A stretch of 32,000 nt of DNA, taken from assembly GCF_015594625.1 (NCBI RefSeq), contig NZ_JADNRQ010000002.1, positions 260,563 through 292,562 on the forward strand. Direction: 5' to 3'. This document shows positions 7,631 through 20,742 of the stretch, in pieces (positions within the stretch are counted from its first letter, which is position 1; the number at the start of each line of letters is the position of its first letter). Under the pieces are notes generated by a model. That model searched no databases and was not told the DNA's origin. It was given only the letters and a program-made list of their open reading frames with translations. A program made the translations under genes and the position numbers. Origin of the DNA: Desulfallas sp. Bu1-1 (GTDB lineage Bacteria; Bacillota; Desulfotomaculia; Desulfotomaculales; Desulfallaceae).

Positions 7631-8011
7631 TCACCTTTTCGCCCTGGCCCCGGTAATAGTTACTGTTCTTTCCCGGCCGGTTCCCGGCTCGGTGTAATAA
7701 ACAGTGACACAAATATTTTTTAAATAGCCGCTGTAAACGTCATCTTCCCTGACTTCCACGGCATACTGGTAACCGTCGTATGGAGCAGCGAAAATTTTCT
7801 TTTCCTCCGGAGCAATTTCTTCATATTTGTTGCCGGAAACCTCTTCAAATTTACCCTGAGCCAGTTCCAACGCGACAAACCTTTTCCCGGCACCTTCCGA
7901 CTGGCGTGAAACAGCAACCATCGCCATGGTTGCCGGTATAACGCTAATGCCAAAAATTAAAATGGCTACTACAACCTCCATGAAAATAAAGCCGCGTTTA
8001 TCGTTCCACAA
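7631..8011 (-). CDS. prepilin-type minor pilin (PilV/GspI-like)
   Basis: TTG start preceded by GGGAGG. MWNDKRG/FIFMEVVVAILIFGISV is a prepilin motif with Glu at +5. Confidence 0.8.
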   Translation of the reverse strand: MWNDKRGFIFMEVVVAILIFGISVIPATMAMVAVSRQSEGAGKRFVALELAQGKFEEVSGNKYEEIAPEEKKIFAAPYDGYQYAVEVREDDVYSGYLKNICVTVYYTEPGTGRERTVTITGARAKR

Positions 8012-8032
8012 CAGAAATACCTCCCATTTAAA

Positions 8033-8515: not shown

Positions 8516-8595
8516 CTTTGAGTAAATTACATTTTACAGGTGTCTATACCCTTATAACTCTTTTTGCGGCAGCTTCTCTGTATCAGTGGAATTAT

Positions 8596-9105
8596 TTACT
8601 TGTAACGTATCGCCGCGCCGTTATTTACACCGGCAATTGTATCAACTATATTCAGAATCATCACTTCGGATTCAATACCATACTTTTGTTTTACGTCGTT
8701 AATTTTAAAATATAAGATTTTGCCCTCAGCTTTAGGTTGAAAAACTAATTCAAAACCACCGGTGGTGATATGGTTAATAATCTTTGAACCATCTTTATTT
8801 CTAAACTCAATAAAGCCATCATCATTAATAAAAATGTAATTGTCCTGATTAGTTATGGTTTCCGGAATAGCATCATTCTCATCTAAAATTTCCAGCTCAG
8901 CAGCATAGCGAACCTGCCTGGTTATAAAATCCGCTGCCAGTCTTATATCCTGCTGAACATTTGATTGGCTTTCTCCAATTGTGAAAGATGTCGTGCCGAA
9001 GTAAAAAAAAGAATACCCCACCCCCAAAACGACAGCCAAAAGGGCAAGGACAATCAGGAGTTCAACTAAACTAACACCTCGCTTGTCATAAGTTATTTTT
9101 AAAAT
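8596..9105 (-). CDS. prepilin-type minor pilin; no canonical start codon upstream of the prepilin motif
   Basis: The frame is open from 9111. It reads I N I L K I T Y D K R G/V S L V E L L I V L A L L A V V L G, and AAGGAG lies at 9115-9120. Only ATT (9111, 9105) or ATA (9096) codons are available before the Gly. The TTG start at 9039 in the ORF track would delete the prepilin motif. Confidence 0.7.
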   Translation of the reverse strand: MLKITYDKRGVSLVELLIVLALLAVVLGVGYSFFYFGTTSFTIGESQSNVQQDIRLAADFITRQVRYAAELEILDENDAIPETITNQDNYIFINDDGFIEFRNKDGSKIINHITTGGFELVFQPKAEGKILYFKINDVKQKYGIESEVMILNIVDTIAGVNNGAAIRYK

Positions 9106-9131
9106 ATTAATCTACTCCTTCACCGAAATGG

Positions 9132-9476
9132 TTATTGATTGGGTACGAATGAAGTTATGGTTACCGTCCGTTCATTTCCGTTACTGTCAGTGTAAGTTTG
9201 GTCACATATCACAAATTTTCCTGTTACAGTTATAGGATCGGTGAGGGATGGAAAACTTATTGATATTGTGCCATCTGTAACATTATTGCCACTTTTATTA
9301 ATAATTGCATTTTCCATTTCCTTTTGTACCTTATATAGAGCCTCGCTCTTACGCCCGGCGGAAAAAATGCCCGAAAAGCCGGCAGAAAAAAGAGTTGTAA
9401 AAGTAAAAACAATTATTACTAATATAGATATTGCTACAAGGACCTCTAATATCGAAAAACCTTTTTTATTGTTCAT
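9132..9476 (-). CDS. prepilin-type minor pilin
   Basis: MNNKKG/FSILEVLVAISILVIIVF is a class III signal peptide. AGGTGG lies upstream. Confidence 0.85.
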   Translation of the reverse strand: MNNKKGFSILEVLVAISILVIIVFTFTTLFSAGFSGIFSAGRKSEALYKVQKEMENAIINKSGNNVTDGTISISFPSLTDPITVTGKFVICDQTYTDSNGNERTVTITSFVPNQ

Positions 9477-9685
9477 TTAACCACCTGGCCTTCAATTTCC
9501 TTCATAACACTCCATCAGACCACCGGCCCCTTTTGAAACCTATTATAGTTGAAATAATATCAACGTTATTAGGAAGCCTATAAAATATTTTTTAATAAAG
9601 CCTTAATTCCTTGCCCAACTACAAGTTACTCAACACCTGAGCACTGGATTTCATACTAACGACCCCTTACATAATTACAATTTTT

Positions 9686-10810
9686 TTATTCTTCTAGCCA
9701 GGTACCTTTTTCATACGCTAATACTGGGAGGTTTTCCGAACTGTAGTATTTATGTATTATCTCTATGTTCCCCGGTCCTCCACATTTATAATTTTTCGCA
9801 ATAAAGGCACCCACATACGTACCATTTCCGCTAAAATCAATAGTAGCACCGGGGGCATAAATAGCTCCCTCAAATCGAATCTTATCTTCCTTAGATTCAC
9901 CCCCACCTCCCACAAACTTAATTTTACCGCCTTCTTTTACAAAAATGTAAAGCGATGCGTTATCATTTATTTGGAATTCAGCATTACCCTTTAAATCAAG
10001 TGTATCGTTCACAAATAACATCAATCTACCTTTTCCTTCTAGTTTGATTATTCCATTGCCGCTCACGTTAAATGTATCTACCATAATTTTTAAATCATTA
10101 TTATCCATTCTAAAAGTCAGCTCATCATTTCCCTGGAGATTGATCCTGTCATACATGCCATTGCTGCTAATCGGTTTTTCATCAGTATTCTGCTTATTTC
10201 CTTTTCCATTTTCATCAGGTATGGAACCTTTATACTCGAGACCTGTTGGGAATGATGCCGGGGGATAAAACATATTTGAATATGGGTATATTCCATATTT
10301 TTCCCAATCGAATTCAACGTTCTTATTAATCGTGATACCGGCATTGGCTCCCAAATCACCTTCAATACCGGCAGATCCGCTATTGATCACAATGTTATCT
10401 TCACTGCTCGCAGAAAACAAAGCCCATTTTTTAAATATATCCATTCTCTTCAGAGTAAGGGTCACGCTTTGATTGACATCGTTTACTTTGCCTGTGGATT
10501 TAATCGAGATGTTATCTGTATCTCCGGCAACATCCACTTCAAACGTACCCCTGCCAAGACTAGCGGGGTCTGATTTTGGAGCATTGATTAAATCAATTGC
10601 CTCACCGGGATGTTTGATTATCCATTCAGCAATAGCCTCTGCTCCGGACCGAGCAATATAGTAGGCCTGCATTCTTTTCTCATCCCTTGAAACCTGCAAA
10701 GCGTCTGATACGCTGTACTGCAACAGGGTTGTTCCCAGCAACATTAAAACAACCATAATTACAAGAACCAGCGGCACAGCTAATCCTCTTTCATCGATTA
10801 CGATTTTCAT
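9686..10810 (-). CDS. PilX-N-like large minor pilin / pilus-associated protein, low-GC paralog of 5935-7119
   Basis: Hydrophobic N-terminus LAVPLVLVIMVVLMLLGTTLL, then QAYYIARSGAEAIAEWI. The C-terminus is rich in short beta-strand repeats (GNG, GGGG, IDFSGNGTYVG). GGAGGA lies 5 nt upstream of the ATG. Confidence 0.65.
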   Translation of the reverse strand: MKIVIDERGLAVPLVLVIMVVLMLLGTTLLQYSVSDALQVSRDEKRMQAYYIARSGAEAIAEWIIKHPGEAIDLINAPKSDPASLGRGTFEVDVAGDTDNISIKSTGKVNDVNQSVTLTLKRMDIFKKWALFSASSEDNIVINSGSAGIEGDLGANAGITINKNVEFDWEKYGIYPYSNMFYPPASFPTGLEYKGSIPDENGKGNKQNTDEKPISSNGMYDRINLQGNDELTFRMDNNDLKIMVDTFNVSGNGIIKLEGKGRLMLFVNDTLDLKGNAEFQINDNASLYIFVKEGGKIKFVGGGGESKEDKIRFEGAIYAPGATIDFSGNGTYVGAFIAKNYKCGGPGNIEIIHKYYSSENLPVLAYEKGTWLEE

Positions 10811-10915: not shown

Positions 10916-11146
10916 TGGTTCGTTTTCCTTATATTTCTCCTACCCGCCGGGCATAACTACATCTTTATATTCCCCGAGCCAGGCCAGGTCAATCACCCGG
11001 CACATGTCCGAGTCGAGACATAAACGGAATTGATAGCCGGCGGATTCCTCAGCCAGCGCATCCTGCCCAAGGAAGCGTATGTCCTGCTACAGTTGCCCGC
11101 AGGCTGAACCAGACGGGTAGTCTAATAAGTAATTATTAAGCGCTGA
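10916..11146 (-). pseudogene. decayed, N-terminally truncated fimT/gspH-like minor pilin gene
   Basis: The minus frame gives SALNNYLLDYPSGSACGQL*QDIRFLGQDALAEESAGYQFRLCLDSDMCRVIDLAWLGEYKDVVMPGG*EKYKENE. This aligns residue for residue with PSFNNFLADYQLDAACRQLQQEIRSTGQDALADESSTYQINLYVRDDKYRMIDLSKPGVYREVVMPGG of the 8033-8515 gene. It has two in-frame stops and no prepilin leader. Similarity is also visible at the nucleotide level. Confidence 0.8.
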
Positions 11147-11148: not shown

Positions 11149-12507
11149 TTATTGAATGTGGTTGGAATTTTCCCCGGCCAGCCGCCAGCAGTTTCTGCCT
11201 TCCCGCTTGGCCCTGTAAAGGGCTTGGTCCGCAAGATCGACCAGCTCCGCGGCTTCGCCGGCGTGCGCCGGAAAGCTGGCGCCGCCGAGGCTGATGGTCA
11301 ACCTTCCCCCGGGCTGGCGCTCCCCGTTGGGAAAAGGATATTCCTCCACCGCCCGGCGGGTGTTTTCCATCACTTGCACCAATCCTTCCGGCCCGGTGTT
11401 GGGGAGGATCACCAGGAATTCCTCGCCGCCGTACCTGGCGATGATGTCGGATTGCCTGAGCGTCGCGGCAAGTATTTTTCCGAGGGTTTTCAGCACCATG
11501 TCCCCCGCGGGGTGCCCGTTAGTGTCGTTATAATGTTTGAAGTGATCCACATCCAACATAATTACGGACAGAGGCGACTCGCTGCTGGCAGCGTCCATTA
11601 TTTCCCGTTTCAGGGCGTATTCCATGTACCTCCGGTTATACAAACCCGTAAGAGGATCCCTGCTAACCTCGCTGGCAAGCACGGCCAGCTGTTTTTTGCG
11701 CTTTAATATATTATCGATTTTAAGCAACAACTCCCGGCGATCAACAGGTTTAGTGATAAAATCATCTGCCCCGTGCCGGAGGCTGTTAAGCTTGTCCTCC
11801 TGGTCGTTCAAAGTAGTGATGACGATAACCGGCACCCCGGAAGTAGCCGGCGTCGACTTGATACGGCGGCAGACCTCAAAACCGTCCATGCCGGGCAGGA
11901 CCAGGTCCAGCAGCACCAGGTCGGGAACGTGTTCCAGAGCAAGTTTTAAAGCTTCGTGCCCGTTGGTGGCGGTAATGATATCCATATCCCGGCCTTCCAG
12001 GTACCGCAGCAATACTTTCATCTGTAAGGGACTGTCTTCCACCACGAGAACCAGCGGTTTATCTTTAAGTGACTCAACCGGTTTCTCAGCGCTACTCTCA
12101 GCCCGCTTCCCGCTTGCCATCAGGGAATTTATAGCTTCGGCAAGCTTACCGGGGCAAACGGGTTTGCTGACGGTCTCACCGGCAGACAATGCCTGCAACG
12201 GCGACACCTGACGTAAATCCTTCGCATCTTCGACAGTAATGACTAGGACGGAGGGGGGCGGCGAAGCGTTCTCCACCAGCCGGGCCAACGCTTCCATTTC
12301 CGTCTTGTCGCCGGGTGAATCCACAATCAGTATGTCGGGCGGCGTACAGGCAATTACCCGGGCTAAAGCTGTCAGTTTGCCGGCCACCTGTAGACAAAAC
12401 AAATTGTAGTCCAGGGACCTGGCCACGGTTTCAATAGTGGTGATATCAGAACTGTAGAGAGCAATACACCCGGTCATTTCTTTGATTTCCATACGCTCAC
12501 CATGCAT
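11149..12507 (-). CDS. response regulator diguanylate cyclase (degenerate REC, canonical REC, GGDEF), PleD-like
   Basis: The second REC has VVEDSP, DLVLLDLVLPGMDG, VIVITT and FITKP. The GGDEF domain has DPLTGLYNRR, MLDVDHFKHYND and RQSDIIARYGGEEF, i.e. GGEEF with an RxxD I-site 5 residues upstream. Confidence 0.9.
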   Translation of the reverse strand: MHGERMEIKEMTGCIALYSSDITTIETVARSLDYNLFCLQVAGKLTALARVIACTPPDILIVDSPGDKTEMEALARLVENASPPPSVLVITVEDAKDLRQVSPLQALSAGETVSKPVCPGKLAEAINSLMASGKRAESSAEKPVESLKDKPLVLVVEDSPLQMKVLLRYLEGRDMDIITATNGHEALKLALEHVPDLVLLDLVLPGMDGFEVCRRIKSTPATSGVPVIVITTLNDQEDKLNSLRHGADDFITKPVDRRELLLKIDNILKRKKQLAVLASEVSRDPLTGLYNRRYMEYALKREIMDAASSESPLSVIMLDVDHFKHYNDTNGHPAGDMVLKTLGKILAATLRQSDIIARYGGEEFLVILPNTGPEGLVQVMENTRRAVEEYPFPNGERQPGGRLTISLGGASFPAHAGEAAELVDLADQALYRAKREGRNCWRLAGENSNHIQ

Positions 12508-12558
12508 ATTTCATTATAGGCATACAAAACCCGGTTTGGGGCTTGCTCCGCAAGGACA

Positions 12559-12654
12559 ATCTTTTCCCCGGCATCCTGCGTTAGCCGGGTAGCAGGCGCC
12601 GCGCCCGGTGACGGTCAACCAATCCCCGGGCGCCCACACTGCCGGGGAAAAGAT
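12559..12654. repeat. perfect 15-bp inverted repeat enclosing a GC-rich nested hairpin
   Basis: ATCTTTTCCCCGGCA (12559-12573) and TGCCGGGGAAAAGAT (12640-12654) are exact reverse complements. An inner stem pairs GCGCCCGG (12601-12608) with CCGGGCGC (12626-12633). The element lies in the pilA to response-regulator intergenic region. Confidence 0.85.
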
Positions 12655-12851
12655 GCAATGTAGAAGGGGGAGTACGAATGTACATATGCACCGTACTCCC
12701 TCGAAAAAAAGACACAACATTCCAAATGCGATCCATAGCAACGTAAGCTTGTAACTTCCTCTAACAATAAGTTAACAAAGCACCGTAGCTTGTAGCTTGT
12801 TCTGGCATTTTAGTTTGTTTTTGCGACAACCAAGAACCGTCCCCTGTCGCA

Positions 12852-13250
12852 TTATACCCCTTGGGGGACATAGTGATTTGTCCAATCACCTACTGGACCA
12901 ATGGTAGGCCGGTCCCCATCATCTGAAGTATTTAATTCATAGTTTCCCTCACCGGCACCTTCTAACCCACAACCTTCAGGTATTACCATAGATGAAGCAC
13001 CCTGTACATAATCATCAAGATCACTTAGGTCATCTGGCCATTCGCCTTCTACTGCTCTATATTGGTCTATTGCTCCATCAAGTATGCGCAAATTAGCATC
13101 ATGTGCCCTCTGTGCAGCCCCTCTGGTAGTACTATTATAAATCGGCACCGCAATCGCAACCAAAATACCAATGATAACCACAACCACCATCAGTTCCACC
13201 AAAGTAAAGCCCTTCTGGTTCTTCATCTGGCGGCACAGTTTGTAAAACAT
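12852..13250 (-). CDS. pilA: type IV major pilin
   Basis: MFYKLCRQMKNQKG/FTLVELMVVVVIIGILVAIAVPIY is a canonical prepilin motif. A strong RBS, GGAAAGGAGGTG, lies 8 nt upstream. Confidence 0.9.
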   Translation of the reverse strand: MFYKLCRQMKNQKGFTLVELMVVVVIIGILVAIAVPIYNSTTRGAAQRAHDANLRILDGAIDQYRAVEGEWPDDLSDLDDYVQGASSMVIPEGCGLEGAGEGNYELNTSDDGDRPTIGPVGDWTNHYVPQGV

Positions 13251-13305
13251 AGCTTTTTCACCTCCTTTCCGTCATATTTAAAAATGCCATTTTTTTCTTA
13301 ATAAC

Positions 13306-13314
13306 ACTATACCA
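13306..13314 (-). promoter_or_regulatory. candidate extended -10 element for pilA (TGgTATAGT)
   Basis: The minus strand reads ttgtTGgTATAGTgtt about 55 nt upstream of the pilA ATG. No good -35 is present. Confidence 0.3.
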
Positions 13315-13359
13315 ACAAAAATCATTTTGAGACACTTATCAAAATAATTGATCAAGTCG

Positions 13360-14040
13360 CTATTTTATCGAACCTTTAGCGGTAAGGATGATAATCCGGC
13401 CGTCCTTGTCCAGGGTTACCCGGCCCCCGGCCGGGTTAATGTTCAGCACCCGGTACCCGTTAAAGGATTCACCTTCCCTGACGTCGTAAAAGTTATCCTG
13501 GTGGCTGAAATAAGCATGATTCTCGCCGTTTTCAATGTAAGTGGTGACAAGTTCGGGGCCGCCGGCAACCGGCATGCGGTCCTCCGGTACTATAGCAGGA
13601 GAATCACCGTTACCAGTTGTTTCCCCTGCTGTTTTTGTGGAATTTTCCGAAGCGTAAGCCACTACCAAGGGCTCAAAGGGATCGCGCCACGAACCGCTTT
13701 TCGGCTTTTCCACCGGTCCGGGCCCTGCGGGCGGGGACGCCGCCGCAACCCCGGTTACCGGCGTGCCTGGCGCTGCGCCGGTAACCACCGGCGCCTGTAC
13801 AAGCGGGTTAAAGGGGTCCTGTTCCGGTTTAACTAGATTTTGTTTTTCTGTGCCTTTGCCATTTTCTGCGGCGGATTGATTGATACTGTAAGCACCCGTT
13901 TCACCAGCCGCGGCGAGGACAGCCGGCGGTTTTCTCAAGTCACTGCCGCAGCCTGCGGCGGCCATTGCCGGAATGACGCACAGCAGGCTTAAAACAATTG
14001 TCTGCAACAATATTTTTCTGCGGCAGGTATCCCCGGTCAT
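13360..14040 (-). CDS. probable lipoprotein with Pro-rich linker, PilP-like C-terminal domain
   Basis: Signal peptide KILLQTIVLSLLCVIPAMAAAGC (lipobox-like), then a Pro/Ala/Gly-rich linker. The C-terminus reads FYDVREGESFNGYRVLNINPAGGRVTLDKDGRIIIL. An ATGA overlap links it to pilO. Confidence 0.6.
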   Translation of the reverse strand: MTGDTCRRKILLQTIVLSLLCVIPAMAAAGCGSDLRKPPAVLAAAGETGAYSINQSAAENGKGTEKQNLVKPEQDPFNPLVQAPVVTGAAPGTPVTGVAAASPPAGPGPVEKPKSGSWRDPFEPLVVAYASENSTKTAGETTGNGDSPAIVPEDRMPVAGGPELVTTYIENGENHAYFSHQDNFYDVREGESFNGYRVLNINPAGGRVTLDKDGRIIILTAKGSIK

Positions 14041-14603
14041 TTTACCTCACCTGCCTTGCCCGGAGGCTGAGCTTCCGAGTAAAAAGCGCTGGCGGCAATC
14101 TCGGCCTTAATCTGGGGGAGTTCCTCACGACCCTTGCCGATTTTGATATTATCAATGCGCAATGCCCTCGGCCCGTCCTGCAGGTCCGCCAGCAGGTCAA
14201 GCAGTGCGTGGTAGCGCCCCTCGAAAGTGATCCTGAAAGGCATCTCTACATAATCCTGTTTTTTTACACGCTGCTCAAAGCGGACCTGTAAAAAGTGCAT
14301 GCCTGATTTTTGAGCAATGTTAGTAATATCTGTAATCAACATATCTTCGGCTGGTTCCGCAGGTAGAACTTTATTATATAACGCCAGCTGTTCCTGCAAA
14401 CCAGCGGACCGCTCTTTGACGCGCGTCAATTCCCGAAGGCGTGCCCGGGCGCTTTCAACGGCCGCCTGTTCAGTGGCCGCCATGTCCCTGGCTGCTTTAA
14501 AAGCGGTGACCTGGTTATACATCAGAAAAGTTATTAGTCCCAATATTGCAAACCCCAAAGCCCCCCATAGAAGGGTGCGGTTTTTCTTTTCCGCCAAAAT
14601 CAC
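14037..14603 (-). CDS. pilO: type IV pilus assembly protein PilO
   Basis: Single N-terminal TM, a coiled-coil, then a ferredoxin-like C-terminus (MPFRITFEGRYHALLDLLADLQ). It sits immediately after pilN. Confidence 0.8.
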   Translation of the reverse strand: MILAEKKNRTLLWGALGFAILGLITFLMYNQVTAFKAARDMAATEQAAVESARARLRELTRVKERSAGLQEQLALYNKVLPAEPAEDMLITDITNIAQKSGMHFLQVRFEQRVKKQDYVEMPFRITFEGRYHALLDLLADLQDGPRALRIDNIKIGKGREELPQIKAEIAASAFYSEAQPPGKAGEVK

Positions 14604-15299
14604 TTACCCGCCTTTCCTTCCAACCGGGTGATAAGCCGGTCCCGGCAGCAGCGCAGCCTTGATTTCAAACTGAATCATGGGCTGTTCCAAAAGGTTTTCC
14701 TCGGAAGAGAACTGGCAGCGGATATCAGCCAGCCCTGGAACACGCTGTAAATCTTTCAGCCACTGGGCCACTGCCAAGTGGTCGAAGGCCCAGCCGCGGA
14801 TAACCAGCTCTCCGGCTGAAGTGTCAGGTGAAGATTGCGCCGGTTCGTTTAACAATTGTTGCTGCCCCTCCGACGATTCCCGGGGATTGTCCCCGCCTTG
14901 ACCTGCCGGGGCTTTATTGCTTTCGTCAACCTTATATGTAGCTGATAAATCCGTCAGCCATATGTTTACGGGCATGTCCAGCCCGATACCGGCCAAAACC
15001 CTTGCCCAGTCCGGAGGCGTTCCCACGGCCCGGCGCACAAGACTGCCGGTTCGCGTCACCTGATCCTGAATCCCGGCATATTGCTCGAGGGACTGAATTT
15101 TACTCTCCAAAGCTTCACGTTCCCGCTGCAACCTGGCAACCTCGGCCCGCGCCTTGATGGTATTGATGGTCAGCGCGCTGTAGGCGCCGGCTACAATTGC
15201 CAGTACCAAAGCACAGGCCACCAGCAACAGGTGCATCCTTCTCTGCTGCTCCTGCCGGGCTAAAATTTCCGGGGGTAATAAATTAATGCTTACAGGCAT
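14604..15299 (-). CDS. pilN: type IV pilus assembly protein PilN
   Basis: MPVSINLLPPEILARQEQQRR is the conserved PilN N-terminus that binds PilM. It is followed by a TM and a coiled-coil. Confidence 0.85.
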   Translation of the reverse strand: MPVSINLLPPEILARQEQQRRMHLLLVACALVLAIVAGAYSALTINTIKARAEVARLQREREALESKIQSLEQYAGIQDQVTRTGSLVRRAVGTPPDWARVLAGIGLDMPVNIWLTDLSATYKVDESNKAPAGQGGDNPRESSEGQQQLLNEPAQSSPDTSAGELVIRGWAFDHLAVAQWLKDLQRVPGLADIRCQFSSEENLLEQPMIQFEIKAALLPGPAYHPVGRKGG

Positions 15300-15303
15300 A
15301 CCT

Positions 15304-16341
15304 TCAGGCCTCCAACCCGCGCAGAGCCAGGCCGATACTTACGGCAAAGTCCGGATATTCCCGTTCCGGGCTGATATTGTTAGCCCCACCCTGCCCTTTT
15401 ATTCTGGCCAGGGGGTTTATTATTTCCACCGGCAGGTCCAGCGCCGCCTCCAGCAGTTCCGGCAACCCCGCAAAACGTGCACCGCGCCCGCTGAGAACCA
15501 GCTTGTCCGGAGGGGCCGCGTTGGGCTGAGCAAGATAATAGCTGATAGACGATCTAATTTCGCCGGCCAGTGCCGCTGCCCAATCATCCTGTGCATTTCC
15601 AGCGTTATCATTGCTCTCCGCCGTTGAAGCCACCTGGCTCATCGCCTGTTCCAGGACCGTGTCCATGGGATAACGCTGTTCACGGGCATATGTTTGCAAG
15701 GAAAGCGGCACCACCCGCGCAAAGCGTGGAAAACCACCGGCAATTAACAGCAGCGCGGTTAAGCCGTTGGATATATCAACCAGGGCTGCACTGGCATCCA
15801 ATTGATCTTCCGGCAATGTACGCATTAGCGCCAGGGGGGAAGCGTCTATAATTACCGGTTTCAGGGAAGCTTCCGTTAAAGCCTGGATACTTTTATCCAG
15901 AAAATCCCGCCTGGCCGCCACCAGCAGCACCTCCAGCTCGGGACCGTTCTCCCCGTTATATTCGCTGATTACCGAGTGGTCGAGCACCAGCTGAGAAAGC
16001 GGAATCGGAAAATATTCTCCAGCATGAAAACGCAGCGCCCGGGCCAGCTTTTTCTCGGGCACTTTCGGAAACCTGGCCAGCCTCATGAGCACCCCTTGAT
16101 TGGAAATACCTAGAACAACTTCGCGCTTCTTAATCCGGGCTTTCGACCACAACTCGTCCAAAGCTTCCGCCACCGGGGTGACTTCCATCACCACCCCTTC
16201 GGACACCGCGTGCTCGGGAATGGTAATCTCCTCTAATGCGGTCAAGGAGAATGAACGCATTGTGCCTTTAATTTCAGCAACCCGAACAACCCCGGTGTCC
16301 AGTTCCAGGCCCACCGCCCCTGCCGGTTTGAAAAATCCCAA
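15304..16341 (-). CDS. pilM: type IV pilus assembly ATPase-fold protein PilM
   Basis: Actin-like fold motifs (GLELDTGVVRVAEI, VDISNGLTALL, LSGRGA). TTG start with AAGGAG upstream. Confidence 0.9.
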   Translation of the reverse strand: MGFFKPAGAVGLELDTGVVRVAEIKGTMRSFSLTALEEITIPEHAVSEGVVMEVTPVAEALDELWSKARIKKREVVLGISNQGVLMRLARFPKVPEKKLARALRFHAGEYFPIPLSQLVLDHSVISEYNGENGPELEVLLVAARRDFLDKSIQALTEASLKPVIIDASPLALMRTLPEDQLDASAALVDISNGLTALLLIAGGFPRFARVVPLSLQTYAREQRYPMDTVLEQAMSQVASTAESNDNAGNAQDDWAAALAGEIRSSISYYLAQPNAAPPDKLVLSGRGARFAGLPELLEAALDLPVEIINPLARIKGQGGANNISPEREYPDFAVSIGLALRGLEA

Positions 16342-16420
16342 AAGTAATCATCTCCTTCAACTTTAATTGGAAGTCAGGATAGGGCTTGGGCAATCAAATT
16401 AAGGCTCCTTGCCGGCATTT

Positions 16421-17629
16421 TTACCTCCCTACAGAGGTGACTACGTTAAATATGGGCAGGTAGACGGCAATAACGATACCGCCGATGATAAAGCCGACAA
16501 AGATAATTAACACCGGCTCGATAAGCGCGGTCAATCCTTTGGTCATGGTGGACACTTCTTCCTCGTAGAACTCGGCCACCTTGGCAAGCAACGTGGAAAG
16601 ATCGCCGGTTTCTTCCCCGACAGCCACCATATTGGTGACCATCGGCGGGAAAAACCCGCTCTTCTCCAGGGGTAAGGCAATGCTCTGTCCTTCTTGAATC
16701 CCTGCCCCGGTCTGTTTGACCGCTTCGGTGACCCGGATACTACCGGACGCCGGGCCGGCGGCATCCAGTGCCTGCAGCACCGGGATACCCCCGGCAAGGA
16801 GTGTGGCCAGTGTACGGCAAAAGCGGGCGATGGTAGCCTTTTTAAAAAGCTCGCCGAAAACAGGCAGTTTAAATTTAATGTAATCCCACGCCCGTTTGCC
16901 GGAATCGCTGCCGGCATATAAGCGCAAACCGGTGACAACCAGGATAAAAAACAGCAGGTAAATATACCAGAAATTACGCAGCGAATCGCTTAAAGCAATG
17001 ATAATCCTGGTGGGCAGGGGCAGGGCCACACCGGTTGGAAAGAAATTCATAAATATGGGAACGATGAAAAACATCATCGCCAGCACGACACAGGTGGCAA
17101 AGAGCACAATGACAACCGGATAAAAAGTGGCGGAACGAATATGATCCCGCAGGCTTTTATCCCGCTCAAGCTGTTCGGAAAGGCGTTTCAGCATTTCTTC
17201 CAGCGAGCCGCCTATTTCTCCCGCTTTAACCATGTCAACGTACATGGTGGAAAAAACATCCGGGTGGGCAAGCAGCGACTCGGAAAAACTTGCCCCGCTT
17301 TCCACATTGCGCGCGACCTCGCCGGTAACACGGCTCAAGGTGGGGTTTGTTGTCTGTTCGTGCAACGTATAAAGACAGCGAGTCAACGGGATGCCGGCTG
17401 CAAGCATGGCCGCCAGCTGCCGGCTGAAAAAGCTGAGATCCCCGATACCGACTTTTCGCCGCATCTCAAATGCTTTCTTAAATTGGGACTGTTTCACTTC
17501 CGACAAATCAACAACGGTGTAGCCCATCCTGCGCAACCGTGCAGCAGCCGTCAATTCATGCTCGGCTTCCAGCTTACCCGTTATTGAAACCCCTGTCCTG
17601 TCATACGCTTGATAAGCATATAAGGGCAT
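16421..17629 (-). CDS. pilC: type IV pilus platform protein PilC (GspF family)
   Basis: Two GspF repeats, three TM segments, 402 aa. Confidence 0.92.
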   Translation of the reverse strand: MPLYAYQAYDRTGVSITGKLEAEHELTAAARLRRMGYTVVDLSEVKQSQFKKAFEMRRKVGIGDLSFFSRQLAAMLAAGIPLTRCLYTLHEQTTNPTLSRVTGEVARNVESGASFSESLLAHPDVFSTMYVDMVKAGEIGGSLEEMLKRLSEQLERDKSLRDHIRSATFYPVVIVLFATCVVLAMMFFIVPIFMNFFPTGVALPLPTRIIIALSDSLRNFWYIYLLFFILVVTGLRLYAGSDSGKRAWDYIKFKLPVFGELFKKATIARFCRTLATLLAGGIPVLQALDAAGPASGSIRVTEAVKQTGAGIQEGQSIALPLEKSGFFPPMVTNMVAVGEETGDLSTLLAKVAEFYEEEVSTMTKGLTALIEPVLIIFVGFIIGGIVIAVYLPIFNVVTSVGR

Positions 17630-17674
17630 ACTATCACCCTTCCTCCGGGCACTATGTAATAACTGGTTATCGTA

Positions 17675-18760
17675 TTACAGGTAGTTTCTCCGCAGCGCCC
17701 TTTCCAGCTCGGTCCGGTCAACACAACGTGCCAGGGCCGTTTCCCGGCTAATGACCCCGGCCAGGCATAAATCGGCCAGGGCCTGGTCCATGGTCTGCAT
17801 ACCCATGTTTCGCCCGGTTTGCATCACCGTGTACAGCTGGTGCTCTTTACCCTCCCGGATTAAATTTTTCACCGCCGGGGAGGTAAGCAATAATTCCACG
17901 ACAGCCACTCTACCCTGACCGATCTCCTTCGGAATCAGCTGCTGGGCTATGACGCCCTGCAGCGAATCGGCAAGCTGTTGTCTGATCTGGCTGCGGGTAC
18001 CCTCCGGGAATACATCTATAATACGGTGCACGGCAAGGGTCGCGGTTTGGGTGTGCAACGTTGAGAACACAAGGTGCCCGGTTTCAGCGGCAGTAAGGGC
18101 AATGGAAATACTCTCCAGATCCCGCATTTCCCCAATCATGATCACATCGGGGTCATGGCGCAGCACGTGCCGGAGGGCATTGGCAAAGGAATGAGTATCA
18201 TTGCCTACTTCCCGCTGTTTAATTATGGATTTTTTATGACTGTGTAAAAATTCAATGGGATCTTCCACTGTGACAATATTCAAGCAGCGCTCTTCATTGA
18301 TCAGGTTAATAATTGACGCCAGGGTAGTCGATTTGCCGCTGCCGGTCGGCCCGGTAACAAGCACCAGGCCGCGCGGCAGGCGGGCCAGTTCCTTAACCGC
18401 CGGCGGGAGGCCCAAATCTTCCAGGCGCGGTATATTCATGGCCACCACCCGGAAATTGACGGCCAGCGAACCGCGCTGCCACATGATGTTACACCGGAAA
18501 CGGCTGACACCGCGAATTGAATGCGAAAAATCCAGCTCCAGGTCTTTTTCCAGCTTCTCCCTGTGGTGGGGCCCAAGAACGGGAAAAATAAGATCTTCTA
18601 TATCCTGGGGCATTAAAACCGGGAGATCCTCCATTGGAACCAGTTCCCCGAATACACGAACAACCGGTCGGGAGCCTGCCGTGAGGTGAAGATCGGAGCC
18701 TTTCATTTCCACCGCGCGAGCCAGGATTTGATTGAGATCCGGCAGATTTTGTTGAATCAT
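17675..18760 (-). CDS. pilT: twitching-motility retraction ATPase PilT
   Basis: GPTGSGKSTT Walker A, Asp box, VIMIGEMRD Walker B, His box TGHLVFSTLHT, 361 aa. Confidence 0.93.
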   Translation of the reverse strand: MIQQNLPDLNQILARAVEMKGSDLHLTAGSRPVVRVFGELVPMEDLPVLMPQDIEDLIFPVLGPHHREKLEKDLELDFSHSIRGVSRFRCNIMWQRGSLAVNFRVVAMNIPRLEDLGLPPAVKELARLPRGLVLVTGPTGSGKSTTLASIINLINEERCLNIVTVEDPIEFLHSHKKSIIKQREVGNDTHSFANALRHVLRHDPDVIMIGEMRDLESISIALTAAETGHLVFSTLHTQTATLAVHRIIDVFPEGTRSQIRQQLADSLQGVIAQQLIPKEIGQGRVAVVELLLTSPAVKNLIREGKEHQLYTVMQTGRNMGMQTMDQALADLCLAGVISRETALARCVDRTELERALRRNYL

Positions 18761-20436
18761 TGTACCACCCTCATTAATTCTTCCAGTGAAGTAACGCCCT
18801 GTTTCACCTTCACCAGTCCATCCCGGCGCAGGGTAACCATCCCTTCGGCAACCGCGGTCGCCTTAATATCCTTTGCTGACTTTCGCTCAAGGGTCAGGCG
18901 CTGGATGCTTTCAGTGACAAACAGGAGTTCATAGATGCCGGTTCTACCCCGGTAACCCGTATTACTACAACGCATACATCCCCTGGGGCGGTAAAGCTTT
19001 AAGGTTGTTTCATTTTCATCCAGGGGAAAATCCGGTATATCCAGCAATTTTTCCAGCGTTAGCTCATAAGGTTCTTTACAGTTGGGACAAAGCACCCGGA
19101 CCAGGCGCTGGGCCATAATACATACCACGGACGATGCGGTTAAAAACGGTTCTATACCCATTTCGGCCAGGCGGGTAATGGCACCGGCGGCATCATTGGT
19201 ATGCAGCGTTGAAAAAACCAGGTGACCCGTCAGGGCCGATTCGATGGCTAACTTTGCGGTCTCTTTATCTCTGATTTCACCAACCATGATAATATCCGGG
19301 TCACTGCGCAGGATCGACCGTAATCCTGACGCAAAGGTAAGCCCGGCCTTGGGATTAATCTGAATTTGATTAATCCCATCCATGCGGTATTCAACAGGGT
19401 CTTCAATAGTGATGACGTTTTTCGCCACTTTATCCACTGTAGCCAGGCTGGCGTAAAGCGTGGTGCTCTTGCCGCTACCCGTGGGGCCGGTGACCAAAAT
19501 ACAACCATAAGGGAGGTTGATTATTTCCCGGTACTTTTCCAGGATTTCAGGGGTAACACCAAGTTCTTCAAGGGTAATCATTTTAGACGAGCGGTCCAGG
19601 AGCCGCAAGGTTAACCGTTCACCGAAGCTGGCGGGCAGCGAAGCAACCCGGGCGTCAATGGTCCGCCCCTCGATTTTCAGTGACACCCGCCCGTCCTGGG
19701 GTATCCTGCGCTCGGCAATGTTCATGTTAGCCATAATTTTTATCCGTGAAACCAGTGAAGCGTGCATTTGCCCGGGCAGTTGCATGATGTCATGCAAAAC
19801 GCCGTCAATTCTGAAACGCACCCGCACATAGTTTTCATATGGTTCGATATGTATGTCACTCGCCTTGGTGCCAACCGCCTGGGCCAGAATCATGTTGGCC
19901 AGCTGCACGGCAGGCTTGGCGGCAGATTCTTCCTCTTCAAGGGTAATATCCTCTTCCTTTTGTTCCTCATTATCCAATTGATCAAACTCCATACCGGCAC
20001 GGGTATATTTTTCTATTGCGGCGCTCAATTCACTATCCGGCACAACCACCGGTTTAATGTCATACCCGGTGAGAATGCGCAGGTCGTCAATAGCCATGAT
20101 ATTATCAGGGTGCTGCATAGCCACGGTGAGCTTGTCACCATTGAAAGCAATAGGCAAAACATTATATCTTTTTAAAGCCTCCGCCGGCAATGTGGCCACA
20201 GCGGCGGGATCAATCCGGAAATTTTCCAGTGAAATAAATGGAACACCGGCGCGCTTGGCAATTACCCTGGCTATGTCGTCTTCAGTGCAATATCCCAGCT
20301 TCACCAGTACTTTGCCGAGATAATTTTGTTTATCTTTACTCAGTTTTTGATTATTCAGGGCTTCATTTAATTGTTCTTCTGTTATTACACCTTCTTTAAC
20401 CAGCCATGTCCCAAGAAAATTTTTTGCAAATTTCAT
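18757..20436 (-). CDS. pilB: type IV pilus assembly ATPase PilB (GspE family) with MshEN-type N-terminal domain
   Basis: GPTGSGKSTT, IIMVGEIRD, TGHLVFSTLHT and the tetracysteine CPNC...CMRC. The N-terminus has two LGxxLVxxG repeats. I prefer the ATG at 20436; a GTG lies at 20439. Confidence 0.93.
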   Translation of the reverse strand: MKFAKNFLGTWLVKEGVITEEQLNEALNNQKLSKDKQNYLGKVLVKLGYCTEDDIARVIAKRAGVPFISLENFRIDPAAVATLPAEALKRYNVLPIAFNGDKLTVAMQHPDNIMAIDDLRILTGYDIKPVVVPDSELSAAIEKYTRAGMEFDQLDNEEQKEEDITLEEEESAAKPAVQLANMILAQAVGTKASDIHIEPYENYVRVRFRIDGVLHDIMQLPGQMHASLVSRIKIMANMNIAERRIPQDGRVSLKIEGRTIDARVASLPASFGERLTLRLLDRSSKMITLEELGVTPEILEKYREIINLPYGCILVTGPTGSGKSTTLYASLATVDKVAKNVITIEDPVEYRMDGINQIQINPKAGLTFASGLRSILRSDPDIIMVGEIRDKETAKLAIESALTGHLVFSTLHTNDAAGAITRLAEMGIEPFLTASSVVCIMAQRLVRVLCPNCKEPYELTLEKLLDIPDFPLDENETTLKLYRPRGCMRCSNTGYRGRTGIYELLFVTESIQRLTLERKSAKDIKATAVAEGMVTLRRDGLVKVKQGVTSLEELMRVVQ

Positions 20437-20543
20437 CACAACTTAACCTCATGGGATAAATATTAACAGATTTTTTATTGTCAATTATTTTCTCGAAAAG
20501 CAATTATTCTCCTTCTTGACGGGCCATATTGTCACACCTAAAT

Positions 20544-20583
20544 ACAAAAAACAAAAAGTGCGGTATTAAACAATTGCCCGCAC
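20544..20583 (-). terminator. intrinsic terminator forming the expression platform of the leader RNA
   Basis: The minus strand reads GUGCGG, a 14-nt loop, CCGCAC, then UUUUUGUUUUUUG. The stem can extend to AGGUGCGG/CCGCACUU. Confidence 0.75.
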
Positions 20584-20667
20584 CTGGTTGCCCGGCCGCC
20601 ATAGCATTATGCCTTAGGCCCGTAACTCTGCGCCCGCTCCTTTCGGAACGTTTGCCTTTTTCAGGTA
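20582..20667 (-). promoter_or_regulatory. candidate c-di-GMP-I (GEMM-I) riboswitch aptamer in the pilB leader
   Basis: ACCUG-AAAAAGGCAAA-[CGUUCC GAAA GGAGCG]-GGCGCAGAG-UUACGGG-CCUAAG-GCAUAAUGC-UAUGG-CGGCCGGGCAAC-CAGGU. It has a GAAA tetraloop hairpin, both halves of the 11-nt tetraloop receptor, a closing helix, and GGCAAAC and CGCA.AG blocks like the Vc2 aptamer. Confidence 0.65.
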
Positions 20668-20713: not shown

Positions 20714-20742
20714 ATTATAAGAGAAAAATGGACCAAAAACAA
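20714..20742 (-). promoter_or_regulatory. candidate sigma-A promoter for the pil leader
   Basis: On the minus strand: TTGTTT (20742-20737), 17 nt spacer, TATAAT (20719-20714). It lies about 40 nt upstream of the aptamer. Confidence 0.35.

What the first reader, a model, noticed from the sequence alone, without database searches (positions are those of the whole stretch)
11149..20667. Three c-di-GMP elements in one pilus gene string: riboswitch, PilB receptor motifs and an embedded diguanylate cyclase
Three c-di-GMP-related elements lie in a single co-oriented gene string. The first is the riboswitch-like leader before pilB. The second is the MshEN-type motifs at the PilB N-terminus. The third is a REC-REC-GGDEF protein with an intact GGEEF and an RxxD I-site, placed between pilA and the minor pilins. 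If the cyclase is co-transcribed, read-through by the riboswitch would raise cyclase expression. That would form a positive feedback loop, limited by I-site product inhibition and by phosphorylation from an unidentified kinase. No histidine kinase and no prepilin peptidase (pilD) are present in the window.
Basis: inference. Interest (0 to 1): 0.8.

Follow-up and report, generated by a model that had tools for sequence, protein, structure and literature searches.

The report
c-di-GMP-controlled pilus operon with cyclase
A type IV pilus gene cluster from an uncultured Desulfotomaculum-like bacterium has a c-di-GMP riboswitch in front, a probable c-di-GMP-binding motor ATPase, and a kinase-activated c-di-GMP synthase among the pilin genes. 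All three parts are real, but the proposed self-amplifying loop is unproven and the sequence gives some reasons to doubt it.

Summary
All three elements are present at the stated coordinates, on the minus strand.

1. **Riboswitch.** A class I c-di-GMP aptamer (Rfam RF01051, 61.7 bits against a cut-off of 35) lies upstream of pilB. Its P1 3' strand is also the 5' arm of an intrinsic terminator. That overlap, the folding energies and covariation in four relatives point to an ON switch.
2. **PilB.** The protein has an MshEN domain that passes NCBIfam's c-di-GMP-motif model. Both half-motifs start with an aromatic residue (F7, Y39) instead of Arg. The arginine-free Thermus PilF domain shows such a site can still bind c-di-GMP.
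3. **Cyclase.** The protein is pseudo-REC, then REC, then GGDEF, with GGEEF, the guanine-specific Asn/Asp pair and an RxxD I-site invariant across 23 orthologs. Its true start is 12492, not 12507.

New points:
- The riboswitch-pilB link is shared by Desulfotruncus and Sporotomaculum, whose fetched pilus loci lack the cyclase.
- Cyclase orthologs of at least 60% identity sit in pilus clusters at varying positions. More distant orthologs do not.
- The pilA-cyclase spacer holds a terminator-like hairpin and a decayed copy of a cyclase 3' end.
- pilA appears to have its own promoter.

The most likely reading is two-level feed-forward control of piliation fed by a dedicated cyclase. Riboswitch-driven positive feedback is possible (about 0.2). 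No histidine kinase or pilD gene is in the window.

The parts
20714..20742 (-). sigma-70-like promoter of the pil operon: TTGTTT (20742-20737), 17 nt spacer, TATAAT (20719-20714). It lies downstream of an aroB terminator-like hairpin.
   Evidence: Read by eye from the sequence. It was not returned by the consensus scan, which requires at least 9 of 12 matches with other constraints. This is inference.
20581..20667 (-). c-di-GMP-I riboswitch aptamer including the P1 helix (5' UACCUG 20667-20662, 3' CAGGUG 20586-20581)
   Evidence: Rfam RF01051 at 61.7 bits against a gathering score of 35. The aptamer alone folds into P1 plus two hairpins. It is conserved upstream of pilB in L001-L004. P1 has an A-U to G-C covariation.
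20545..20585 (-). Intrinsic terminator (AGGUGCGG / CCGCACUU plus U-tract). Its 5' arm shares 5 nt with the P1 3' strand, which makes it an ON-type expression platform.
   Evidence: The hairpin alone is -11.8 kcal/mol. 95% of cells are paired and 3 pairs carry compensatory changes across five genomes. Alignment column 147 covaries with both its P1 partner and its terminator partner. The ligand-free minimum-energy fold is the terminator fold in all five genomes, by 3.4-8.2 kcal/mol.
18757..20436 (-). pilB, the pilus extension ATPase, with an N-terminal MshEN domain. Half-motifs are FLGTWLVKEGVITEEQLNEALNNQ and YLGKVLVKLGYCTEDDIARVIAKR.
   Evidence: Pfam T2SSE and MshEN. NCBIfam c-di-GMP_motif at 55.9 bits against a cut-off of 38. 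PDB matches to PilF, Geobacter PilB and MshE. Motif read and compared with relatives.
17675..18760 (-). pilT, the retraction ATPase. It overlaps the pilB stop by 4 nt.
   Evidence: NCBIfam pilT_fam at 469 bits against a cut-off of 319. Pfam T2SSE.
16421..17629 (-). pilC, the platform protein
   Evidence: Pfam T2SSF, E=5e-65
14037..16341 (-). pilM (15304-16341), pilN-like (14604-15299) and pilO (14037-14603)
   Evidence: Pfam PilM_2 and PilO. PilN is weak at E=0.0015. Orthologs are present in L001-L004.
13360..14040 (-). orf226, an uncharacterised pilus-cluster protein
   Evidence: No Pfam or NCBIfam hit. There is a 31%-identical homolog at the same position in L004.
13306..13314 (-). Extended -10-like element TGgTATAGT about 55 nt upstream of the pilA start, a possible pilA promoter that bypasses the riboswitch
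   Evidence: Read by eye. Not found by the consensus scan. This is inference.
12852..13250 (-). pilA, the major prepilin (leader ...KG|FTLVE). It has low G+C (about 43%).
   Evidence: Pfam N_methyl. NCBIfam IV_pilin_GFxxxE. Composition.
12666..12702 (-). Terminator-like hairpin GGGAGUACG...CGUACUCCC followed by a degraded U-tract (CCUUCUACAUUGCAUCUUUU)
   Evidence: Folding. The same hairpin lies upstream and downstream of the cyclase in L091, with a better U-tract downstream.
12535..12650 (-). Decayed copy of a GGDEF-gene 3' end (pseudogene fragment) inside the pilA-cyclase spacer
   Evidence: blastn against the 3' end of orthologous cyclase genes gives 72% over 95 nt, E=1e-7. tblastn fragment PGDWLTVTGRGACYPANAG matches PGGRLT(I/V)SLGGASFPAHAG. 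Five-way alignment.
11149..12492 (-). Response-regulator diguanylate cyclase: pseudo-REC (about 8-133), REC (147-265; E152/D153, D196, T226, K248), GGDEF (about 275-440; GGEEF 355-359, I-site R346-D349, N322/D331)
   Evidence: Pfam. 23-ortholog alignment with these residues invariant. AlphaFold2 model with mean pLDDT 79.9. Foldseek to PleD, DgcR and WspR. NCBIfam GGDEF domain.
11006..11143 (-). Fragment of a minor-pilin-like gene in the cyclase-DUF7305 spacer. The same 3' flank accompanies the 83% ortholog.
   Evidence: blastn against L081/L082 gives 82% over 199 nt, and against window 8258-8377 gives 71%. tblastn with L081 orf62.
5935..10810 (-). DUF7305/PilX-like gene (9686-10810), four genes with a prepilin N-terminal methylation motif (9132-9476, 8033-8515, 7631-8011, 7135-7626), an ORF without one (8596-9039), and orf394 (5935-7119). 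G+C is low from about 8500 to 10500.
   Evidence: Pfam DUF7305 and N_methyl. Homologs in L002, L004, L007 and L087. Composition.

Best explanation
This is the main type IVa pilus locus of an uncultured Desulfotomaculia bacterium. c-di-GMP probably controls it at two levels, and a dedicated signalling cyclase is kept next to it.

Level 1 (RNA; architecture shown, function inferred). The operon pilB-pilT-pilC-pilMNO-orf226(-pilA) starts at its own promoter, downstream of an aroB terminator-like hairpin (both read by eye). Its leader is a class I c-di-GMP aptamer whose P1 3' strand is also the 5' arm of an intrinsic terminator.
- Without ligand the terminator fold is favoured, so transcription stops.
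- Ligand-stabilised P1 removes 5 of the 8 terminator base pairs, so RNA polymerase reads through. This is an ON switch.

Level 2 (protein; inferred). The PilB MshEN domain binds c-di-GMP through the conserved Leu/Gly scaffold. F7 and Y39 would stack on the guanines in place of arginine. Binding would favour pilus extension.

Input (inferred from conserved residues). The neighbouring pseudo-REC/REC/GGDEF protein makes c-di-GMP when an unlinked histidine kinase phosphorylates D196. In Desulfoscipio geothermicus the ortholog sits beside a HAMP-HisKA kinase. Its RxxD I-site caps output.

The system therefore acts as a coherent feed-forward chain: kinase signal, then cyclase, then c-di-GMP, then more pilus machinery and a more active PilB. 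The cyclase is probably expressed at least partly independently of the riboswitch. It travels with its own flanks, behind a terminator-like hairpin and downstream of a probable pilA promoter. Any riboswitch-to-cyclase positive feedback is at most a leaky add-on.
For: **Riboswitch**
- Aptamer match at 61.7 bits.
- Riboswitch conserved upstream of pilB in four related genomes, and absent upstream of pilB in the other PilB loci that include upstream sequence.
- P1/terminator overlap, with the terminator fold more stable by 3.4-8.2 kcal/mol in all five genomes.
- One alignment column covaries with both alternative partners.

**PilB**
- MshE-type c-di-GMP motif model passed, 55.9 bits against 38.
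- Structural relatives include c-di-GMP-bound MshEN and PilF.
- PilF GSPII-B binds c-di-GMP at 6 nM with no arginine at position 1. Its authors propose that hydrophobic replacement predicts high affinity (PMC11731258).
- Relatives also carry F or L at these positions.

**Cyclase**
- GGEEF, N322/D331, RxxD, D153/D196/T226/K248 are invariant in 23 orthologs.
- Fold matches PleD, DgcR and WspR.
- Orthologs of at least 60% identity are embedded among pilus genes in six differently arranged contexts.
- In L087 the cyclase stop is 26 nt from the DUF7305/minor-pilin genes.
- The ortholog in D. geothermicus sits next to a HAMP-HisKA-HATPase kinase.

**Independent expression**
- Hairpin and pseudo-GGDEF flank travel with the gene.
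- No terminator-like site from the scan falls in either spacer.
Against: - There is no experimental data of any kind.
- The ON assignment rests on thermodynamic folding and five sequences, two of them close relatives.
- PilB position-1 residues F and Y fall outside both the published relaxed motif [RKPN] (PMC5013675) and the extended (R/K/L) consensus. Motif II also has C for a hydrophobic residue, and the spacer is 8 residues.
- C. perfringens PilB2 binds c-di-GMP without any change in ATPase rate (PMC11656802), so the output is unclear.
- The cyclase occupies a junction that carries unrelated cargo in other genomes, so linkage could be accidental.
- More distant orthologs (43-58% identity) are not pilus-linked.
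- No canonical promoter was found directly upstream of the cyclase. This keeps read-through from pilA, and hence some riboswitch influence, possible.
- The window aptamer has a G where the consensus and four relatives have A in the CGCA-A-AG junction.
Confidence: 0.55

Rival explanations
1. The cyclase is co-transcribed with pilB...pilA from the riboswitch-controlled promoter. c-di-GMP-induced read-through then raises cyclase level, giving an autocatalytic, possibly bistable loop limited by the I-site and by phosphorylation.
For: - Same strand, and the riboswitch is of ON type.
- No canonical intrinsic terminator from the scan and no recognisable sigma-70 promoter in the pilA-cyclase spacer.
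- The spacer hairpin has a degraded U-tract in this genome, so read-through is plausible.
- The cyclase is contiguous with pilus genes in several relatives.
Against: - The distance from the riboswitch terminator to the cyclase start is 8 kb.
- The 359-nt spacer is highly structured (-123.7 kcal/mol) and holds a terminator-like hairpin that, in L091, also follows the cyclase gene with a good U-tract.
- The spacer is a rearrangement scar, a pseudo-GGDEF fragment.
- A probable pilA promoter lies downstream of the riboswitch (by eye).
- Relatives with the same riboswitch-pilB unit have no cyclase ortholog in the fetched loci.
- The three-element arrangement could not be found in a second genome.
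Confidence: 0.2
2. Accidental neighbourhood. The cyclase is generic signalling cargo that landed in a recombination-prone slot between pilA and the minor pilins, and it has no dedicated role in piliation.
For: - The same junction carries MazF plus an IS200 transposase in Desulfotruncus arcticus, and a Wzy_C/TPR gene in a Desulfotomaculum MAG.
- pilA and the minor pilins have aberrant low G+C.
- Gene fragments flank the cyclase on both sides.
- Orthologs at 43-58% identity lie in unrelated contexts.
Against: - Orthologs of at least 60% identity remain inside pilus clusters although the local order differs each time: after pilO, after pilA, before DUF7305, or between pilins.
- The locus has two other c-di-GMP-sensing parts that would use the cyclase product.
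Confidence: 0.15
3. The riboswitch is an OFF switch or is non-functional, so c-di-GMP represses the pilus operon or does not affect it. Class I riboswitches act as OFF switches in Clostridioides difficile.
For: - Class I riboswitches functioned uniformly as OFF switches in C. difficile once upstream promoter effects were excluded (PMC6200980).
- In L001 and L002 a 5+3 bp remnant hairpin persists when P1 is enforced.
- The window aptamer has an A-to-G change in the conserved CGCAAAG junction.
Against: - The P1 3' strand is part of the terminator 5' arm, not complementary to it. This is the ON topology.
- Double covariation of the shared column supports both helices.
- Both helices and the U-tract are conserved in five genomes.
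Confidence: 0.1

Closest known systems
Clostridioides difficile Cdi-2-4 riboswitch upstream of pilA1 (type IV pilus operon)
   Same: This is also a Bacillota type IV pilus locus whose leader is a c-di-GMP riboswitch. Ligand binding allows transcription read-through, so high c-di-GMP gives piliation (PMC6200980; PMC6366702).
   Different: There the riboswitch is class II (c-di-GMP-II) and sits before the pilin gene pilA1. Here it is class I (RF01051) and sits before pilB, with pilA eight genes downstream and probably self-promoted. In C. difficile the class I riboswitches acted as OFF switches. No cyclase is described within the C. difficile pilus operon in the papers read.
MshEN-domain extension ATPases: V. 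cholerae MshE, C. perfringens PilB2, M. xanthus PilB, T. thermophilus PilF GSPII-B
   Same: The N-terminal four-helix module has two tandem 24-residue LGxx(L/V/I)(L/V/I)xxG...LxxxLxxQ half-sites ahead of a PilB/GspE ATPase. It passes the NCBIfam MshE-related c-di-GMP motif model and aligns with 5HTL and the PilF structures.
   Different: Position 1 of both half-sites is aromatic (F7, Y39) rather than Arg (MshE) or Lys/Leu (PilF GSPII-B). The spacer is 8 residues rather than 5. Motif II ends in R instead of Q and contains a Cys. Binding is untested.
Response-regulator diguanylate cyclases PleD (Caulobacter), WspR (Pseudomonas), DgcR (Leptospira)
   Same: A REC domain is linked by a long helix to a GGDEF domain with GGEEF and an RxxD I-site five residues upstream. 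Foldseek aligns the full length to PleD (E=6e-34) and the REC-GGDEF part to DgcR (TM 0.73 on the target) and to WspR.
   Different: In PleD the first REC is phosphorylated and the second is the adaptor. Here the first is the degenerate one (the acidic pocket is SS-D, and Pfam REC scores E=0.028), and the canonical REC abuts GGDEF as in WspR and DgcR. The NCBIfam PleD equivalog score is 285, below the 474 cut-off. The gene lies among pilus genes.
Pseudomonas aeruginosa SadC-PilO coupling
   Same: A diguanylate cyclase is functionally tied to the PilMNO alignment complex of a type IV pilus (cited in PMC11656802). Here the cyclase gene directly follows pilMNO in the 83% and 95% orthologs.
   Different: SadC is a membrane protein that interacts physically with PilO and is not encoded in the pil cluster (that last point is from my own knowledge). 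Here the cyclase is a soluble response regulator, and only gene linkage is shown.

Membership tests
c-di-GMP-I riboswitch (Rfam RF01051, GEMM-I) | Covariance-model score above the curated gathering threshold over the full model | tested here: met
   61.7 bits against 35, model positions 1-87 of 87
c-di-GMP-I riboswitch (Rfam RF01051, GEMM-I) | Ligand-contacting nucleotides: the G of GGCAAA (G20 in Vc2 numbering, which separates c-di-GMP from cGAMP), the first A after CGC (A47), and the C in the 3' ACC (C92) | tested here: inconclusive
   Alignment to the consensus shows GGCAAAC, CGCA and AACC present. Mapping to Vc2 numbering is from memory. The neighbouring A is G in the window only. L001 scores best with the variant model RF03167.
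c-di-GMP-I riboswitch (Rfam RF01051, GEMM-I) | Binds c-di-GMP | not testable with these tools
   Needs in-line probing or ITC
Transcriptional ON riboswitch | The ligand-stabilised helix (P1) and the terminator stem compete for the same nucleotides, with the terminator as the default fold | tested here: met
   5-nt overlap. The terminator fold is more stable by 3.4-8.2 kcal/mol in five genomes. The shared column covaries with both partners.
MshEN c-di-GMP receptor domain | Domain-level homology (Pfam PF05157; NCBIfam NF053729 53-residue c-di-GMP motif) | tested here: met
   PF05157 E=5.5e-23. NF053729 at 55.9 bits against a cut-off of 38, residues 8-61. 5HTL match at E=4e-17.
MshEN c-di-GMP receptor domain | Arg (or K/L in the extended consensus; [RKPN] in the relaxed motif) at position 1 of each 24-residue half-motif | tested here: not met
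   F7 and Y39. Motif definitions come from PMC5013675 and PMC11731258.
MshEN c-di-GMP receptor domain | LG, the hydrophobic pair, the turn Gly, LxxxL and a terminal Q in both half-motifs, joined by a 5-residue spacer | tested here: inconclusive
   Motif I matches fully. Motif II has Y-C for the second hydrophobic pair, I for L twice, and R for Q. The spacer is 8 residues.
MshEN c-di-GMP receptor domain | Binds c-di-GMP | not testable with these tools
   Needs DRaCALA or ITC with PilB(1-150)
Active GGDEF diguanylate cyclase | GG(D/E)EF active site, metal-binding Asp residues, and the guanine-specific Asn/Asp pair (not Ser as in Hypr cGAMP synthases) | tested here: met
   GGEEF 355-359, D314/D316, N322 and D331 are invariant in 23 orthologs. 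Residue roles come from established PleD and GacA work (my own knowledge; PMC6456294 was listed but not read).
Active GGDEF diguanylate cyclase | RxxD inhibitory site five residues upstream of GG(D/E)EF | tested here: met
   R346-Q-S-D349, then IIARY, then G355. R346 and D349 are invariant.
PleD family response regulator | NCBIfam equivalog NF007135 above its cut-off, with domain order phospho-REC, adaptor REC, GGDEF | tested here: not met
   285 bits against a cut-off of 474. The degenerate REC comes first and the canonical REC second.
Phosphorylatable receiver domain | Acidic pocket, phospho-acceptor Asp, and conserved Thr/Ser and Lys | tested here: met
   In REC2, E152/D153, D196, T226 and K248 are invariant. 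Pfam Response_reg E=4e-33.
Type IVa pilus system | PilB, PilT, PilC, PilM, PilN, PilO, major pilin, minor pilins and prepilin peptidase | tested here: inconclusive
   All are present except the prepilin peptidase. Relatives encode PilD after TldD/PmbA, downstream of the minor pilins.

The most novel reading that the evidence does not exclude
The locus is a self-contained c-di-GMP circuit. A class I ON riboswitch drives, by read-through across a leaky decayed terminator, the very cyclase that makes its ligand, and the same ligand activates the PilB encoded by the same mRNA. This would give a phosphorylation-gated, I-site-limited bistable switch for piliation. It would be a rare case of a c-di-GMP riboswitch controlling a c-di-GMP synthase.
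Probability: 0.2. Interest if true: 0.65.

Novelty: new variant of a known kind. Interest (0 to 1): 0.42.

Why it matters
Each part belongs to a well-studied family, and c-di-GMP control of Gram-positive pili by riboswitch (C. difficile) or by PilB binding (C. perfringens) is already known.

New points here:
- RNA-level and protein-level sensing occur together at one locus, in spore-forming sulfate-reducer relatives.
- A class I aptamer is wired as an ON switch in front of pilB.
- PilB has an aromatic, arginine-free MshEN site. This extends the hydrophobic position-1 idea raised for Thermus PilF.
- A pseudo-REC/REC/GGDEF cyclase lineage has been drawn into pilus clusters.

If the cyclase is under riboswitch control, this would be one of the few c-di-GMP riboswitches that regulates c-di-GMP metabolism. 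It would offer a compact model for bistable surface commitment.

In practice the locus gives three cheap in vitro tests: termination assay, PilB binding, and cyclase activity. It also gives a candidate kinase family to search for.

Tried and rejected
1. Exact-sequence look-ups of the cyclase, in both the 452-aa and 447-aa versions, found no source contig.
2. A metagenome scan with the cyclase returned only one close ortholog, which was already known. I therefore could not test whether the three-element arrangement recurs.
3. Contigs carrying cyclase orthologs contain no Rfam family at gathering score and do not reach pilB.
4. A relaxed Rfam scan of 10700-13400 found only chance-level hits. The GC-rich, strongly folding pilA-cyclase spacer looked at first like a possible new leader RNA. 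It is a decayed cyclase 3' end plus a hairpin, and its 14-bp inverted repeat is not conserved in L091. I rejected it as an RNA element.
5. I considered the palindrome GGTGCCAGGCAC next to cyclase orthologs as a sigma-54 promoter. I rejected this because the -12 GC is absent (by eye). It is a dispersed repeat.
6. I recalled that the C. perfringens cyclase CPE1788 lies in the pilus operon. I could not verify this because the paper is not held, so I did not use it.
7. PleD-equivalog membership was rejected.
8. A Hypr (cGAMP-making) GGDEF was rejected because the Asn/Asp pair is canonical.
9. The about 740-nt extra segment between pilC and pilM in relatives is a sigma-factor gene, not pilD.

Full report
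**What is there**

The window is almost entirely minus-strand genes. The layout is as follows.
- The shikimate genes aroE, aroC, aroK and aroB lie at 23738-20784. A hairpin plus T-run follows them.
- A sigma-70-like promoter comes next, read by eye: TTGTTT, 17 nt, TATAAT, at 20742-20714.
- The pilus genes pilB, pilT, pilC, pilM, a pilN-like gene and pilO follow, then an unknown orf226, then pilA.
- After pilA come a 359-nt spacer, a response-regulator diguanylate cyclase, and a 338-nt spacer.
- Then come a DUF7305/PilX-like gene and five further ORFs, four of them with a prepilin N-terminal methylation motif, then orf394.
- Gaps between the machinery genes are -4 to 109 nt.

By PilB, aro-gene and cyclase similarity the organism is an uncultured member of the Desulfotomaculia. 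The closest species representatives are Desulfotruncus alcoholivorax, D. arcticus and Sporotomaculum syntrophicum, at 75-76% PilB identity.

**Element 1: the riboswitch**

Rfam's c-di-GMP-I model matches 20583-20666 over its full length at 61.7 bits against a gathering score of 35. The aptamer alone folds into the expected P1 plus two hairpins.

P1 pairs UACCUG (20667-20662) with CAGGUG (20586-20581). The next helix is AGGUGCGG/CCGCACUU followed by UUUGUUUUUUG. That helix uses five of the same nucleotides as P1.

The same leader precedes pilB in L001-L004. A covariance model built from the five aptamers finds it upstream of pilB in none of the other PilB loci that include upstream sequence.

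Across the five genomes:
- The terminator is 95% paired, with three compensatory pairs.
- P1 has an A-U to G-C change.
- Alignment column 147 changes together with both its P1 partner and its terminator partner. That is what a nucleotide shared by two exclusive helices should do. With five sequences this is probably a single evolutionary event.
- With no ligand term, the terminator fold beats the P1 fold by 3.4, 4.8, 8.2, 4.3 and 7.9 kcal/mol.

I therefore read it as an ON switch. This is inference, at about 0.7-0.75. In C. difficile the pilus riboswitch is class II and ON, while class I riboswitches acted as OFF switches (PMC6200980).

**Element 2: PilB**

Domain evidence is solid.
- Pfam finds T2SSE and MshEN.
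- NCBIfam's 53-residue MshE-related c-di-GMP motif model scores 55.9 bits against a cut-off of 38.
- Residues 7-145 align with Thermus PilF, Geobacter PilB and V. cholerae MshEN 5HTL.

Motif I is FLGTWLVKEGVITEEQLNEALNNQ. It matches RLGxx(L/V/I)(L/V/I)xxG(L/V/I)(L/V/I)xxxxLxxxLxxQ at every position except the first.

Motif II is YLGKVLVKLGYCTEDDIARVIAKR. It deviates at position 1, has a Cys, has Ile for Leu, and ends in R. The spacer is 8 residues rather than 5.

F and Y fall outside both the relaxed [RKPN] motif and the extended (R/K/L) consensus. Three points still favour binding.
- In MshEN the arginines only stack on the guanines.
- PilF GSPII-B binds c-di-GMP at 6 nM with K and L at these positions. 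Its authors argue that hydrophobic replacement predicts higher affinity.
- Among the 80 PilB relatives fetched, hydrophobic residues are commoner than Arg at motif I position 1. Close relatives carry F or L, and F.

Binding is therefore plausible, at about 0.6, but untested.

**Element 3: the cyclase**

The conserved start is the ATG at 12492. The upstream CATGGTGA-N4-ATGG is shared by orthologs, and the orthologs are 434-447 aa long.

Residues that are invariant in 23 orthologs:
- The REC residues D153, D196, T226 and K248.
- GGEEF at 355-359.
- The guanine-specific N322 and D331.
- R346 and D349, placed exactly five residues before GGEEF.

The N-terminal 135 residues hit Pfam REC only at E=0.028 and lack the acidic pocket. 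The AlphaFold2 model (mean pLDDT 79.9) gives a (beta-alpha)5 fold. Foldseek aligns the full length to PleD, and the REC-GGDEF part to DgcR and WspR.

The protein is therefore REC-REC-GGDEF in fold. The order is the reverse of PleD: pseudo-receiver first, phosphorylatable receiver next to GGDEF. It fails the PleD equivalog cut-off.

**Is the cyclase part of the pilus system?**

For a functional link:
- Orthologs of at least 60% identity always lie among pilus genes, at different positions each time.
- One lies directly after pilMNO and before TldD-pilD (83% ortholog). Another lies after pilMNO (95% ortholog).
- One lies 26 nt upstream of DUF7305 and the minor pilins (72%).
- Two lie among pilins (60-62%).

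Against a functional link:
- Orthologs at 54-58% identity lie next to a HAMP-HisKA-HATPase kinase (Desulfoscipio geothermicus) or next to unrelated genes.
- Orthologs at 43-44% lie in an rpmE-prfA context.
- The four relatives that share the riboswitch-pilB unit have no cyclase ortholog in the fetched loci.
- The pilA/minor-pilin junction holds MazF plus IS200 in D. arcticus and a Wzy_C/TPR gene in L004.

The cyclase was therefore recruited into the pilus cluster in one sublineage, probably after the riboswitch-pilB unit already existed.

**Is it co-transcribed, so that feedback is possible?**

The pilA-cyclase spacer is not a simple operon junction.
- It contains a 9-bp GC hairpin (12702-12666) followed by CCUUCUACAUUGCAUCUUUU.
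- After the hairpin comes about 115 nt that is recognisably a decayed copy of a cyclase gene's 3' end (blastn E=1e-7 to orthologous 3' ends).
- In the 95% relative this hairpin-plus-fragment unit occurs both upstream and downstream of the cyclase. The downstream copy carries a proper U-tract, so it looks like a terminator.
- The cyclase-DUF7305 spacer is likewise a fragment of a minor-pilin gene, and it travels with the cyclase in the 83% ortholog.
- pilA has TGgTATAGT about 55 nt upstream of its start (by eye).

On the other side, the consensus scan finds no terminator and no sigma-70 promoter in the spacer, and the U-tract here is eroded. Some read-through from pilA is therefore likely. Whether those transcripts began at the riboswitch promoter cannot be told from sequence. 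I put riboswitch-driven feedback at about 0.2.

**Most likely mechanism**

The chain runs from an unlinked kinase to phosphorylation of D196, then to cyclase dimerisation and c-di-GMP synthesis, self-limited through RxxD. c-di-GMP then acts in two ways.
- (a) It stabilises P1 and suppresses the leader terminator, raising pilBTCMNO mRNA.
- (b) It binds PilB MshEN and favours extension.

This is a coherent feed-forward arrangement.
- Shown: the sequence features and their conservation.
- Inferred: ligand binding, switch polarity, enzymatic activity, and the functional link.

**Comparison and novelty**

Riboswitch control of Gram-positive pili, MshEN-PilB receptors and RR-GGDEF cyclases are each established. 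I found no description of the three together, or of this clade's class I riboswitch before pilB, in the papers searched. The library is incomplete, and Sudarsan 2008 and Hendrick 2017 are not held.

I rate the finding as a new variant of a known kind, of moderate interest. Its feedback interpretation is only partly supported.

Noticed in passing
window 3804-4568 (-) and 4577-4996 (-): There is a second GGDEF-related pair of genes about 7 kb downstream of the cyclase. One is a CBS plus GGDEF-like protein with GGDDF in place of GG(D/E)EF, matching only the first ~90 of 161 profile positions. It is preceded by a 139-aa ORF with a weak GGDEF-like hit (E=0.01). The pair is probably catalytically inactive or divergent.
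   Followed up: partly
window 5894-5905, 5922-5933, 3815-3827; L087 1-17; L090 4579-4595; L091 3780-3796: The dispersed palindrome GGTGCCAGGCAC occurs 11 times at up to 2 mismatches against 3.0 expected. It sits at gene ends in the window and flanks cyclase orthologs in relatives. Its function is unknown; it could be REP-like or a recombination or operator site.
   Followed up: partly
L002 14009-14725 and 17821-19104 (Desulfotruncus arcticus); similar spacing in L001, L003: Relatives carry a sigma-70-family gene (regions 2, 3, 4) between pilC and pilM, and a Secretin_N-domain protein after pilO, inside the riboswitch-controlled pilus operon. Both are absent from the window.
   Followed up: partly
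L002 20540-21830; L004 10834-13587: The junction between pilA and the minor pilins is a variable slot. It holds the MazF toxin plus an IS200 Y1 transposase in D. arcticus. In a Desulfotomaculum MAG it holds a Wzy_C/TPR O-antigen-ligase-like gene (possibly a pilin glycosylase) plus an Rfam group-II-intron D1-D4 hit. In the window it holds the cyclase.
   Followed up: partly
L085 6748-10015 and 15042-15135 (-): On a Desulfoscipio geothermicus-like contig the cyclase ortholog is followed by a HAMP-HisKA-HATPase kinase, a candidate cognate kinase family. A second c-di-GMP-I aptamer (58.7 bits with model R1) sits upstream of cheW and an MCP gene 5 kb away.
   Followed up: no
L009 14994-15085 (+): An Actinomycetes MAG has a c-di-GMP-I-like aptamer (61.7 bits with model R1) just downstream of pilB-pilT-pilC. 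This suggests an independent riboswitch-pilus link in another phylum.
   Followed up: no
window 8500-10500 and 12852-13250: pilA (about 43% G+C) and part of the minor-pilin region (36-37% G+C at 8500-10500) are well below the 50-59% of the machinery genes and the cyclase. This is consistent with horizontally exchanged or fast-evolving pilin cassettes.
   Followed up: no
window ~20623 (aptamer junction CGCAGAG); L001 9762-9844: The window aptamer has G where the Rfam consensus and four relatives have A (CGCA-A-AG). The D. alcoholivorax aptamer scores best with the variant family RF03167 (c-di-GMP-I-GGC). Ligand specificity of this clade's aptamers is therefore worth testing.
   Followed up: no
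L002 8192-9580 and 2846-5503: In D. arcticus TldD/PmbA and the minor pilins lie immediately upstream of the riboswitch-pilB unit. The pilus supercluster is thus circularly permuted relative to the window. In relatives TldD-pilD follows the minor pilins, and neither gene is in the window.
   Followed up: partly
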